From the NCBI GenBank assembly GCA_027339965.1, contig DAHWNL010000061.1, positions 1-61,962 of the forward strand: DNA of 61,962 bases, read 5' to 3'. Shown in pieces: positions 57,697-61,962 of this stretch; the first letter of the stretch is position 1; the number at the start of each line of letters is the position of its first letter. The position numbers and the translations under genes are program-made. Source of the stretch: Granulicella sp. (GTDB taxonomy: Bacteria > Acidobacteriota > Terriglobia > Terriglobales > Acidobacteriaceae). The notes under the pieces were generated by a model, which was given only the letters and a program-made list of their open reading frames with translations, made no database searches and was not told the origin of the DNA.

Positions 57697-58284
57697 CGTC
57701 CTGTCTCCAGCCGCGAGCCAAGCCCCGGGCCGCGAGCCAAGCCCCGCCCAACCCGTCGCCAGAGCAGATCATCCGCCGCCACCCGCCCCCGTCCCTCCTG
57801 TCCCGGGCTCGGAGGCGGCTATTTACCCTTTTGATTCCATTGGCGTTAGAGTCCACCGCGATAGAGTCCACCCGGCTGGATCCCCGCTCCACCCTGGCTT
57901 TTCTGCCATTCGCTGCAAAATATCCCCGTTTACTGCTTGGGTAACGACTTGCGGCCCCAGAACCTCCTAAGCTGGGGATGGTACGCGGTCTGGATCTGCT
58001 TGCCCTCGCCAAGGATCCGGATAACAAAGATCGGGGTAACAAAGATTCGGGTAAGGAGTCTGGACTGTTGGCCTGAGGAATCGGGGCCTCCGCCATGGCG
58101 AAGCCGTGGCAGCGGGCTTCAAAAGCAAGGAATCAGGGCAACCAGTCAAGGCAAGTAGCTTCTGGAAGCCCGGAATGCCCTTTTGTGGCTTGAGCGTTGC
58201 TGCTGGAAGCGTAGCCGTTTGAGTCCATCAACGAAAGCAAGGACCGCGCGGATCGCCGCGGAGAATCTTCAGGAGGTACGAAAA

Positions 58285-60390
58285 ATGGGAAAGGCAACCA
58301 AACTACTCGAAAAAGGCATCGTTGTCGGCGCCAGGGGCGCCTGGGCAGTGTTCAGCCGGCTGAACTCCATCAGCCCCAATGAAAGCTTTACTCCGAAGTG
58401 GTCGGATAAGCCGCTGCTCAAGTCGTACCAGAAAGAGAAGCCGCCTCTGGGCTGGCCACGCACCACGGACTCCCTCTGCCCCAAGTGCGTTCCAGAGATT
58501 CGCAAGCAGATTGTGGATGGCAAGCTGCCCCACGAGATTCTGCTCAATGAGAAGGTAGGCGAGATCAAGGCGCAGATCATCGAGCGGGACGGCAAGATAC
58601 TGATGGTGAAAGACTGCCCGATCCACGGCCACTTTGAAGATGTGATGTCCATCGATCCTCCCATGATGAAGCACCTGGAGGACGTCTTTCCGGGCCGCGA
58701 CATCCGCGCCCACAACGACGGCAAGCTGCACAATCACGGCACCTCGACGGTCACCCATGGCCGCGGCTCGGTGTTGACCATCGACCTGACCAACCGCTGC
58801 AACATGATGTGCGACCCCTGCTTCATGGACGCCAACCAGGTCGGCTTTGTGCATGAGCTCACCTGGGATGAGATCAAGACCATGCTGGACAACGCCATCA
58901 CCATCAAGCCCAAGCGGCAGATGTCGGTGCAGTTCTCCGGCGGCGAACCCACGCTGAGCCCTTACTTCCTGGACGCTGTGGCCTACGCTCGCAAGGTGGG
59001 TTACAACTCCGTGCAGGCGGCCACCAATGGGATTGAGTTCGCCAAGTCCAAGGAGTTTGCCAAGGCGGCGGCGGAGGCCGGCCTGCGCTATGCGTACCTC
59101 CAGTTTGACGGCATCGGCAATGCCGCCAACTCACACCGCAAGGTGGGCAACGCCTTTGACGTGAAGTTGCAGGCGATCCACAACCTGCATGAGGCCGGCG
59201 TGGATATCGTTCCCGTCACCACCATCGTCAACGGGATCAACAACGAACAGGTGGGGCGCATCATCCAGTTCGCCATGGACAACCCCAAGAAGATCAACTT
59301 CCTCTCCTTCCAGCCGGTCAGCTTCACCGGCCGCGATGAGGACATCTCCGACGAGCGCCGCGCCGCGCAGCGTTACACCCTCTCCCATCTGGCTCACGAC
59401 GTACGCGACCAGACGGGTCTGGGTGAGAGCACCCGCGACTGGTATCCCATCAGCTTCATGTCCACCTTCTCGGACTGGGCTGACTTGGTACATGGTCCCG
59501 ACCGGGAGTGGGGCCAGCTCTCCTGCGGTTGCCATCCCAACTGCGGCGTCGGCATGGCGTTGATGATCGACAAGGAGACCAAGGAAGCCGTGCCGGTGAC
59601 GGCGTTCCTGAACGCCTCGCGCCTGGCCAAGGATGTCGCCCGGGTCAACGACGCGGCTCGCGGCAAATTCCTTACCATGCTGGGCGGCTCTCTGGCGCTC
59701 ATCCGCAACTATGAGCCCTACAAAGCCCCCAAGCACTTCAGCATCTTCGCCCTGCTGGCCAAGTTCGACAAGTGCTTCGGAGCTTCCGGACGCTCCTACG
59801 GCAAGGTCTCCGGAGACCGCACCATGGAGGACATCCAGAAGCGCCGCGCCGATCGCTGGAACTTCCTGTTCATCGCCGGCATGTGGTTCCAGGATCTGTT
59901 CAACTACGACTTCCGCCGCACCGAGCAGTGCATCATCCCCTATGCCACCCAGGAGGGCGAGATCAGCTTCTGCGCCTACAACACGGGCATCGGCTGGCGC
60001 AACATCATTGAGAAGATGCACATGACCGCCTCGCTGACCAAGTGGTACGAGGAGCATGGTCGCCATGAGATCTTCGCCGGCGGAAAGAAAGTCGGCCTGG
60101 AAAAGCAGGAGAAGATTGACTTGGTGGTCAACCAGGAGCATGTGAACGCGGCTGCCAACGATACCTTCGACAAGAGCGGCATCGCCAAGAACGCTCGTGA
60201 GGAGAAGCTCCGCGCCCGCGAGCAGAAGCTGAAGCAGGATGCCGAGAACGCCCGCATGGCCAAGCTGTACCGCAAGGAGATCCTCAAAGAGCAGGAGATT
60301 CCAGGATTTGTCCCGCTCGGCGAGATCAGCGCCATCCAGCCCGCAGCCCAGCCGCAGAAGGACGTCGAGGAGACCGTCGCCGGCGACTGA
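58285..60390 (+). CDS. Radical SAM protein, tetraether lipid synthase (Tes/GDGT-MAS, MJ0619)-like
   Basis: TDSLCPKC..KDCPIHG, DLTNRCNMMCDPCF, QFSGGEPT, ATNG, YLQFDG, FQPVSFTGR, CHPNCG, MWFQD..YD..R..QCIIPYAT..ISFCAYN; AGGAGG RBS. Confidence 0.85.
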   Translation: MGKATKLLEKGIVVGARGAWAVFSRLNSISPNESFTPKWSDKPLLKSYQKEKPPLGWPRTTDSLCPKCVPEIRKQIVDGKLPHEILLNEKVGEIKAQIIERDGKILMVKDCPIHGHFEDVMSIDPPMMKHLEDVFPGRDIRAHNDGKLHNHGTSTVTHGRGSVLTIDLTNRCNMMCDPCFMDANQVGFVHELTWDEIKTMLDNAITIKPKRQMSVQFSGGEPTLSPYFLDAVAYARKVGYNSVQAATNGIEFAKSKEFAKAAAEAGLRYAYLQFDGIGNAANSHRKVGNAFDVKLQAIHNLHEAGVDIVPVTTIVNGINNEQVGRIIQFAMDNPKKINFLSFQPVSFTGRDEDISDERRAAQRYTLSHLAHDVRDQTGLGESTRDWYPISFMSTFSDWADLVHGPDREWGQLSCGCHPNCGVGMALMIDKETKEAVPVTAFLNASRLAKDVARVNDAARGKFLTMLGGSLALIRNYEPYKAPKHFSIFALLAKFDKCFGASGRSYGKVSGDRTMEDIQKRRADRWNFLFIAGMWFQDLFNYDFRRTEQCIIPYATQEGEISFCAYNTGIGWRNIIEKMHMTASLTKWYEEHGRHEIFAGGKKVGLEKQEKIDLVVNQEHVNAAANDTFDKSGIAKNAREEKLRAREQKLKQDAENARMAKLYRKEILKEQEIPGFVPLGEISAIQPAAQPQKDVEETVAGD

Positions 60391-61650: not shown

Positions 61651-61962
61651 TAGACCATCTTACTCTGGGGTATAAGCCTTGATTCTTTGCAGCCGCCTGG
61701 ATTGAGCTCCTGTTTGATGTATGGCTCGGGCATACGGTGATGATCTTGGGCGCAAGGTGTTGTCGGCTTATGCGGGCGGCAAGGGCACGATGAAGGAGGT
61801 GGCGTTGCGGTTTGACGTCACCTACGGCTGGGTGCAGAAGATCGCGCGCGCCCAGCGGCAGAACGGCAGCTACAAGCGGGTGCCGCAGCGGCGTGCTCCG
61901 AGCGGGGTCGATTACGAGGTGATCCGGCGGCTGGTCGAGCGGGAGCCTGACATCGTGCTGGT
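61651..61962 (+). mobile_element. IS630-family insertion sequence, left end and transposase N-terminus (truncated by window edge)
   Basis: ATG 61721: MARAYGDDLGRKVLSAYAGGKGTMKEVALRFDVTYGWVQKIAR...IRRLVEREPDIVL, an IS630-type HTH N-terminus. Candidate left end at TA-GACCATC (61651). Confidence 0.8.

What the first reader, a model, noticed from the sequence alone, without database searches (positions are those of the whole stretch)
58285..60390. Bacterial homolog of tetraether lipid synthase (Tes/GDGT-MAS)
Seen: rubredoxin-like CPKC..CPIH, radical SAM CNMMCDPC, FQPVSFTGR, and C-terminal HPNCG, MWFQD, QCIIPYAT and FCAYN, colinear with archaeal MJ0619/Tes as recalled. Established: Tes forms the C-C bond joining lipid tails, and some Acidobacteria make iso-diabolic acid and branched GDGTs. 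Inference: candidate membrane-spanning lipid synthase. Activity of such bacterial homologs is not established from sequence alone.
Basis: partly seen in the sequence, partly recalled or inferred. Interest (0 to 1): 0.75.

Follow-up and report, generated by a model that had tools for sequence, protein, structure and literature searches.

The report
Acidobacterial three-cofactor lipid-tail coupling enzyme
This intact gene encodes a bacterial relative of the archaeal enzyme that welds two lipid tails together; it lacks the binding motif for one of that enzyme's four metal centres and likely makes the membrane-spanning lipid iso-diabolic acid of soil acidobacteria, a role proposed in print in 2022 and apparently still untested.

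Summary
Confirmed: 58285-60390 (+) is an intact 701-aa radical SAM gene under purifying selection (dN/dS 0.09-0.15). Its model matches archaeal Tes/GDGT-MAS (7TOM, Z 45.7, 2.4 A over 479 residues, 28-31% identity). It keeps the rubredoxin, radical SAM and catalytic C-terminal cluster ligands but lacks the N-terminal [4Fe-4S] cysteines, and scores 316 against the NCBIfam Tes cut-off of 450: a distinct subfamily, not canonical Tes. Tes-family matches occur in 145 of 151 genomes of its own class (134 at subfamily level) and 60 of 61 of a class grouping with Blastocatellia; they are patchy elsewhere. That fits published iso-diabolic acid producers, which lack Mss; a 30% identity filter probably missed the gene. 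No Ger/PlsA or ElbD was found in this genome, so the likely product is ester-bound iso-diabolic acid, not brGDGT. No direct activity test was found, and named lipid-negative strains could not be checked. Acidobacterial Tes homologues were proposed for this role in 2022, and this scan noted the same gene before on at least 8 other genomes. A good experimental target, not a new idea.

The parts
58285..60390 (+). Gene for a 701-aa Tes/GDGT-MAS-family radical SAM protein, subfamily without the N-terminal [4Fe-4S] motif; stand-alone
58271..58276 (+). Shine-Dalgarno-like AGGAGG, 8 nt before the ATG; supports 58285 over the upstream TTG at 58183
58288..58368 (+). N-terminal extension, predicted helix at residues 2-28 with amphipathic character (moment 0.49), outside the part aligned to GDGT-MAS; possible membrane-surface anchor (inferred)
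58477..58626 (+). Rubredoxin-like site C65, C68, C111, H114 (GDGT-MAS C9, C12, C33, H36), with a 22-residue longer spacer
58729..58740 (+). H149-x-H151-G152 motif standing where GDGT-MAS has the C73/C77/C80 ligands of its N-terminal [4Fe-4S] cluster; cysteines absent
58798..58821 (+). Radical SAM CX3CX2C motif C172, C176, C179; followed by F180 (GDGT-MAS F106)
59308..59334 (+). Motif holding Q343 and S346 (GDGT-MAS Q268, S271, which bind 5'-deoxyadenosine)
59524..59547 (+). CxCHPxCG motif; C420 is a likely ligand of the C-terminal cluster; C414 is kept throughout the subfamily alignment
59881..59982 (+). C-terminal cluster region: M533 (GDGT-MAS M439), C549, Y553 (Y459), C563; the best-conserved part of the subfamily (87% mean identity)
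60067..60387 (+). C-terminal extension beyond the GDGT-MAS fold (residues 595-701), with a predicted charged helix 637-665; variable across the subfamily; no Pfam match

Best explanation
The protein is a radical SAM enzyme with the fold of archaeal tetraether synthase that likely joins the terminal methyl carbons of two iso-C15 fatty acyl chains in phospholipids, giving ester-bound iso-diabolic acid, the membrane-spanning lipid of acidobacteria. Shown: the fold, the conserved ligands and active-site residues, the missing N-terminal cluster motif, the distribution. Inferred from GDGT-MAS chemistry (Lloyd 2022): SAM cleavage gives a 5'-deoxyadenosyl radical that takes a hydrogen from one chain end; that radical is parked on a sulfur of the C-terminal [4Fe-4S] cluster; a second SAM activates the second chain end, which attacks and forms the C-C bond. 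Inferred: electrons arrive without the N-terminal cluster, through the rubredoxin site or a partner; ether bonds (brGDGT) would need a separate reductase, not found in this genome.
For: Fold: Z 45.7, 2.4 A over 479 of 498 residues of 7TOM; Foldseek E 3.3e-36. Equivalents of M439, Y459, F106, Q268, S271 and three invariant C-terminal cysteines are kept; the C-terminal cluster region is the best-conserved part. The motifs hold in 119-120 of 120 close homologues and 72-74 of 74 full-length named records. It is the only full-length Tes-family gene in this 98.9% complete genome. Matches in 145 of 151 genomes of the class, 19 of 19 and 36 of 36 of the family besides this genome, 60 of 61 in the class grouping with Blastocatellia. 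Published: 14 of 19 acidobacterial strains in Table S21 make iso-diabolic acid (subdivisions 1, 3, 4, 6), none has Mss. Iso-diabolic acid is 11.8-30.4% of fatty acids in six Edaphobacter strains. E. aggregans, a producer, is reported to have one Tes homologue, at 32% identity. Iso-fatty acid tails end like phytanyl tails, and GDGT-MAS binds ester phospholipids. Koribacter, with Tes homologues but no Ger, is reported to make only iso-diabolic tetraesters (Chen 2025, seen second-hand).
Against: No knockout, expression or assay of a bacterial Tes homologue was found; papers of 2025 and 2026 call the activity unconfirmed. One review sentence says Chen 2025 'showed' Tes involvement; the support it gives is co-occurrence and that paper was not held. 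Identity to GDGT-MAS is only 28-31%, the lipid-pocket region is divergent (21% mean identity to bacterial four-cofactor proteins), and one cofactor motif is missing whose role is unknown. Homology does not guarantee product: haloarchaeal Tes homologues without GDGT, MA_1114 with trace activity, Desulfoluna with a Tes hit and no membrane-spanning lipid. The subfamily also occurs in records titled Myxococcota (11 of 80) and Gemmatimonadota (6 of 80), for which I saw no iso-diabolic acid data, and in some Thermoanaerobaculia, whose one strain in Table S21 is negative. It was found in only 27 of 61 genomes of the class grouping with Vicinamibacterales. Any core gene of these classes would show a similar distribution; the match is by class, not by strain. 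Solibacter, which has two Tes homologues, has no detectable iso-diabolic acid. No lipid gene lies next to it here.
Confidence: 0.66

Rival explanations
1. It does radical chemistry on lipid tails but makes another product, such as an intramolecular macrocycle, a cross-link or coupling of ether lipids only under low oxygen; bulk iso-diabolic acid comes from an unrelated, still unknown enzyme, as Sahonero-Canavesi 2022 suggested.
For: The lipid-pocket region has diverged and the N-terminal cluster motif is gone. GDGT-MAS itself makes both macrocyclic and spanning products. The subfamily reaches groups without iso-diabolic acid data, and many genomes carry a second paralogue at about 50-54% identity. 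Two radical SAM proteins of this genome have no NCBIfam match at E 1e-25.
Against: It needs a second, unknown coupling enzyme with the same distribution. The published argument for it (Tes in only 3 of 14 producers) rests on a 30% identity filter that this subfamily straddles (28-31% to GDGT-MAS); the same table lists no Tes for E. aggregans and S. usitatus, where other papers report them. The gene is near-universal in the family while Ger/PlsA is in 22 of 61.
Confidence: 0.22
2. Its substrate is not a membrane lipid; it is a conserved housekeeping radical SAM enzyme (cofactor, RNA or peptide modification), as the old database label 'pterin dimethyltransferase' would have it.
For: Several database entries carry that label. 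It also matches the TrsS family model, at 212 bits. Near-universal retention fits any essential function.
Against: Lloyd 2022 could not corroborate the pterin annotation and found a hydrophobic lipid tunnel. The match to Tes is stronger than to TrsS (316 vs 212 bits) and covers the whole GDGT-MAS chain, including the helices and cluster that handle lipid.
Confidence: 0.09
3. It is a catalytically dead or decaying Tes homologue that only binds lipids.
For: One metal-binding motif is lost.
Against: dN/dS 0.087-0.149 against 6 of 6 relatives tested; SAM-binding and C-terminal cluster residues are invariant or nearly so.
Confidence: 0.03

Closest known systems
Tetraether synthase Tes / GDGT-MAS of Methanocaldococcus jannaschii (MJ0619; PDB 7TOL, 7TOM; NCBIfam NF045702)
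   Same: Whole fold (Z 45.7, 2.4 A, 479 residues); 3Cys/1His rubredoxin site; radical SAM motif; C-terminal cluster with Met ligand; Y459, F106, Q268, S271 equivalents.
   Different: No C73/C77/C80 motif for the N-terminal cluster (HxHG instead); 55-residue N-terminal and about 105-residue C-terminal extensions; longer rubredoxin spacer; extra cysteines before the conserved His; 28-31% identity; below the family cut-off; bacterial host with fatty acid lipids.
Published acidobacterial Tes homologues of the distant type: Solibacter usitatus Acid_2410 (Q025C7), the single Edaphobacter aggregans homologue, probably Acidobacterium capsulatum WP_015897912
   Same: About 30-32% identity and E near 1e-61 to archaeal Tes; Acid_2410 appears with PF04055 at 166-330 against 168-330 here (read from machine-extracted figure text). 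Proposed in print for membrane-spanning lipid synthesis.
   Different: I did not have these sequences, so orthology is inferred from the reported figures. The papers read do not separate this type by cofactor content.
Four-cofactor bacterial Tes homologues (probably the 40-42% identity type reported for Koribacter and Solibacter Acid_5929)
   Same: Same family and C-terminal cluster ligands; some genomes carry both types.
   Different: [quoted passage not shown] None in this genome.
Membrane-spanning lipid synthase Mss (Thermoanaerobacter ethanolicus, Thermotoga maritima)
   Same: Radical SAM enzyme shown to couple fatty acid tails into (iso-)diabolic-type diacids, the reaction proposed here.
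   Different: Described as only remotely related to Tes, found in anaerobes, and not found in the acidobacterial genomes screened. I had no Mss sequence to compare.
Radical SAM (seleno)protein TrsS (NCBIfam NF045646)
   Same: Related model, 212 bits over residues 93-567.
   Different: Far below its cut-off of 490 and weaker than the Tes match.

Membership tests
Radical SAM superfamily | CX3CX2C motif and partial TIM barrel (PF04055 above cut-off) | tested here: met
   69.6 bits vs 29.5, residues 168-330; model and fold matches
Tes/GDGT-MAS | Overall fold including rubredoxin, core and C-terminal cluster domains | tested here: met
   Z 45.7, 479 of 498 residues aligned, on a predicted model of pLDDT 92
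Tes/GDGT-MAS | Rubredoxin-like 3Cys/1His site | tested here: met
   C65, C68, C111, H114; PF23545 48.6 bits
Tes/GDGT-MAS | N-terminal [4Fe-4S] cluster ligands C73, C77, C80 plus His | tested here: not met
   No cysteine in the aligned stretch; triad absent in 120 of 120 close homologues and 74 of 74 full-length named records
Tes/GDGT-MAS | C-terminal [4Fe-4S] cluster with 3 Cys and Met439; conserved Tyr459 | tested here: met
   M533 and Y553 align with M439 and Y459; C420, C549, C563 invariant in 20 of 20 aligned sequences. The paper passages read do not number the three cysteines, so their assignment is inferred.
Tes/GDGT-MAS | NCBIfam NF045702 equivalog score of at least 450 | tested here: not met
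   315.7 bits; 8 other subfamily members 291-343, 8 four-cofactor proteins 501-602
Tes/GDGT-MAS | Groups with biochemically verified Tes in a rooted tree | tested here: inconclusive
   The subfamily (54 rows) is one side of a branch with 100% SH-like support, apart from four-cofactor proteins; no verified Tes sequence and no outgroup were in the tree
Tes/GDGT-MAS | Forms a C-C bond between terminal carbons of lipid chains | not testable with these tools
   Needs expression, knockout or in vitro assay
Mss | At least 30% identity and E at most 1e-50 to T. ethanolicus or T. maritima Mss | not tested
   No Mss sequence was in hand; the paper calls Mss remotely related to Tes
TrsS | NF045646 score of at least 490 | tested here: not met
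   212.1 bits
brGDGT pathway (tail coupling plus ether formation) | Ger/PlsA or ElbD in the same genome | tested here: not met
   PF09989 not found in the genome, 98.9% complete, controls positive; neither of the two strong PF07993 proteins shows the ElbD domain order. Other ether routes are not excluded.

The most novel reading that the evidence does not exclude
This three-cofactor subfamily, not canonical Tes or Mss, is the main enzyme that makes membrane-spanning lipid cores in aerobic soil bacteria: a single-gene marker for iso-diabolic acid and brGDGT-backbone producers that also points to Polyangiaceae, some Gemmatimonadota and Polarisedimenticolia as unrecognised producers, and shows that tail-to-tail coupling works without the N-terminal cluster, whose place a His-x-His site has taken.
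Probability: 0.3. Interest if true: 0.75.

Novelty: new variant of a known kind. Interest (0 to 1): 0.45.

Why it matters
The enzyme that makes iso-diabolic acid in acidobacteria is an open gap: they are major producers, Mss was not found in them, and a 2022 screen concluded that they use another pathway. Branched GDGTs built on this backbone are widely used temperature and pH proxies whose sources are uncertain. If this gene is the synthase, one knockout or expression test closes the gap, gives a genetic marker for producers, and tells which of the two kinds of bacterial Tes homologue matters. It would also show that the N-terminal cluster of Tes is dispensable. The candidate itself is already in print, so the gain is a sharper target rather than a new concept.

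Tried and rejected
Operon or lipid cluster at this locus: rejected; neighbours are mutS2, hemB and a HAD hydrolase, and neither mutS2 nor the HAD gene was found in the 1.5-kb flanks of 29 of 29 related loci. Upstream RNA element, promoter or terminator: nothing above chance. Recent foreign origin: not supported; GC3 0.85 against 0.81 for mutS2, and homologues throughout the family. Membrane-spanning helix: none (maximum 19-residue hydropathy 0.92). Longer start at TTG 58183: rejected on the Shine-Dalgarno site and homologue starts. Expression: no run holds this organism (best share of words 0.05); contigs of relatives in three RNA libraries lay only on the gene, but those runs were picked with this stretch and contigs do not show transcription, so this is not used. 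A conserved partner gene: a first cluster of 13 loci proved to be several unrelated radical SAM neighbours. A maximum-likelihood tree did not finish; FastTree was used. Geometry of the His-x-His site could not be examined, as the model's coordinates are not returned. Two papers were not held.

Full report
OBSERVATION. The window holds an intact ORF at 58285-60390 (+), 701 aa, with a Shine-Dalgarno-like site 8 nt upstream. Named close homologues (80-86% identity) come from Acidobacteriaceae, Edaphobacter, Terracidiphilus and Alloacidobacterium dinghuense, so the host is most likely an Acidobacteriaceae member (inference). The gene stands alone between mutS2 and a HAD hydrolase gene, and those neighbours were not found beside 29 of 29 related loci. 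dN/dS is 0.087-0.149 against 6 relatives.

WHAT IT RESEMBLES. Of 5 solved sequences matched, GDGT-MAS (7TOL) is far ahead: E 1.4e-60 against 2.8e-06. An AlphaFold2 model (60-row alignment, pLDDT 92.2) matches 7TOM with Foldseek E 3.3e-36 and 28% identity, and with Z 45.7, 2.4 A over 479 of 498 residues and 31% identity. Lloyd 2022 (PMC9433317; read parts 1-4 of 9, extended-data legends and supplement passages) defines four metal sites. I mapped them by reading the alignment, where chain numbers run 20 above the paper's. Rubredoxin C9/C12/C33/H36 corresponds to C65/C68/C111/H114; the radical SAM motif to C172/C176/C179; M439 to M533; Y459 to Y553; F106, Q268 and S271 to F180, Q343 and S346; R210 probably to R285 (one residue of ambiguity). 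C420, C549 and C563 are invariant in 20 of 20 aligned sequences and are the likely C-terminal cluster ligands (inferred). The N-terminal cluster ligands C73/C77/C80 have no counterpart: an H149-x-H151-G motif stands there.

TWO BACTERIAL TYPES. Acidobacteriota carry two kinds of Tes homologue. One keeps CPxxCGxC and passes the NCBIfam Tes cut-off of 450 (501-602 bits, 8 of 8 tested). The other, to which this gene belongs, lacks it and scores 291-343 (8 of 8 tested; this protein 315.7). The triad is absent in 120 of 120 close homologues and 74 of 74 full-length named records (6 of the 80 were too short to count), while the other motifs are kept in 119-120 of 120 and 72-74 of 74; HxHG is in 120 of 120 and 66 of 74. 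In a FastTree tree of 81 chosen proteins, 54 of the 55 without the triad form one side of a branch with 100% SH-like support; the 55th, from a cluster with Parcubacteria names, sits among four-cofactor proteins. The tree has long branches, no outgroup and no biochemically verified Tes, so it shows separation, not ancestry.

DISTRIBUTION. Matches at E at most 1e-30: 145 of 151 genomes of the window's class, 134 of them at E at most 1e-200 by my count from the table, and 19 of 19 others of its family; 240 of 401 in the phylum, both types counted, 36 of 36 others of the family. For three other classes, labelled only by where their proteins group with named records: 60 of 61 (with Blastocatellia); 27 of 61 (with Vicinamibacterales; 25 of 26 in twelve families, 2 of 35 in four); 23 of 81 (with Thermoanaerobaculia; 20 of this subfamily). 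A fourth class gave 23 of 41. One genome marked unpublished (G172) is one of the matches; those two tallies rest on it by one count and need its depositors' permission for publication. Related genomes are not independent, and a core gene of any function would look alike.

LIPID CONTEXT. Table S21 of Sahonero-Canavesi 2022 (PMC13159169; passages, section 9 part 1, table rows) lists 14 of 19 acidobacterial strains as iso-diabolic acid producers (subdivisions 1, 3, 4, 6) and 5 as negative (Solibacter and subdivisions 8, 10, 23), finds no Mss in any, counts Tes in 3 of the 14 with a 30% identity filter, and concludes that another pathway exists. This subfamily sits at 28-31% to GDGT-MAS, and the table lists no Tes for E. 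aggregans or S. usitatus, where Zeng 2022 (PMC8941075; passages and section 7) and Halamka 2023 (PMC10087280; passages and part of supplement 1) report homologues with another query. The filter therefore probably hid a near-universal gene (inference; I could not rerun it with their query). Iso-diabolic acid is 11.8-30.4% of fatty acids in six Edaphobacter strains (PMC11354219, passages). This genome has a single full-length Tes-family gene. PF09989 (Ger/PlsA) was not found here and is in 22 of 61 genomes of the family; no ElbD layout was seen. Of 19 other radical SAM proteins, 17 match NCBIfam models and 2 do not; Mss was not tested directly.

MECHANISM. Best reading (0.66): omega-omega coupling of two iso-C15 acyl chains on phospholipids, by two SAM-derived radicals with the first chain radical parked on the C-terminal cluster, as shown for GDGT-MAS; the product here would be ester-bound iso-diabolic acid. 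Shown: fold, ligands, distribution, selection. Inferred: substrate, product, electron supply, and a membrane-surface role for the amphipathic N-terminal helix (no transmembrane segment). The role of the missing cluster is unknown even in GDGT-MAS, and Gms is reported to couple tails without a rubredoxin domain (PMC13459092, passages), so the loss does not argue for inactivity. Against: no direct test found; Tes homologues without spanning lipids exist; the pocket region has diverged; the subfamily occurs in groups without lipid data and in a class whose one tested strain is negative; Solibacter has no detectable iso-diabolic acid. Rivals: another lipid-tail reaction (0.22), a non-lipid substrate (0.09), a dead enzyme (0.03).

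WHAT IS KNOWN. Zeng 2022 reported 456 bacterial Tes homologues and proposed them for brGDGT synthesis; Chen 2022 (10.1101/2022.04.07.487437, passages) and Halamka 2023 used them; Garcia 2024 (PMC11214058, passages) found gms clustered with tes in Acidobacteria. PMC11868695 (2025) and 10.64898/2026.06.23.733905 (passages) call the bacterial activity unconfirmed; the latter uses WP_015897912 as a putative Tes. PMC13023045 (passages) reports that Chen 2025 linked Tes alone to iso-diabolic tetraesters in Koribacter; that paper was not held and might contain more. Passages of PMC13274423, PMC12042123, 10.1101/2025.10.20.683597 and 10.64898/2026.09.04.749484 added no test of a bacterial homologue. 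Eight searches showed no paper describing the missing N-terminal cluster or testing this subfamily; the library lacks most subscription geochemistry journals and bioRxiv supplements. This scan noted look-alikes in 89 windows, and the 8 notes shown give the same reading; they are not independent evidence.

VERDICT. Works like Tes (likely); is not a member of the canonical Tes equivalog (two defining tests failed). A variant of a known kind and an already published candidate. The added value is the split into two types, the near-universal presence of this type in the producing classes, the explanation of the 2022 negative screen, and the prediction of ester-bound product in this genome. Interest 0.45.

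Noticed in passing
L173:7214-8398 (own genome, contig C21) and L126:3881-4951: An unassigned 394-aa radical SAM protein of this genome is 60% identical to one encoded directly upstream of the Tes-like gene in a record titled Blastocatellia; a possible partner in lipid modification. Its own neighbours here are not lipid genes.
   Followed up: partly
L148, L162, L163, L168, L171; L024, L027, L028; L137; L049, L169: Other uncharacterised radical SAM genes lie beside the subfamily gene in some lineages: 389-421 aa in 5 Gemmatimonadota records, 431-438 aa in 3 Terriglobia-class loci, a 548-aa SPASM protein (possibly Gms-like, untested), and two B12-binding ones. A minority of the 138 loci examined.
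   Followed up: partly
L063, L064, L065, L050; protein P0268: A second paralogue of the subfamily (about 50-54% identity) is common in several families, and a more divergent one is named from Terriglobus roseus.
   Followed up: partly
protein P0380: A Tes-family protein from a cluster with Parcubacteria names also lacks the N-terminal cluster motif but groups with four-cofactor proteins, suggesting a separate loss; long branch.
   Followed up: no
L075, L083 (own genome, contigs C6 and C65): Hopanoid genes hpnJ and hpnH pass their NCBIfam cut-offs.
   Followed up: no
L067 (own genome, contig C47:92007-95396): An 1130-aa protein with an AMP-binding domain followed by a reductase domain; not the ElbD order.
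   Followed up: partly
window 61721-61962: An ORF with a weak helix-turn-helix match runs off the contig end; it resembles an IS630-type transposase start (recalled, not shown).
   Followed up: partly
window 57710-57750: A short direct repeat of about 17 bases follows the mutS2 stop codon; no known RNA family matched.
   Followed up: no
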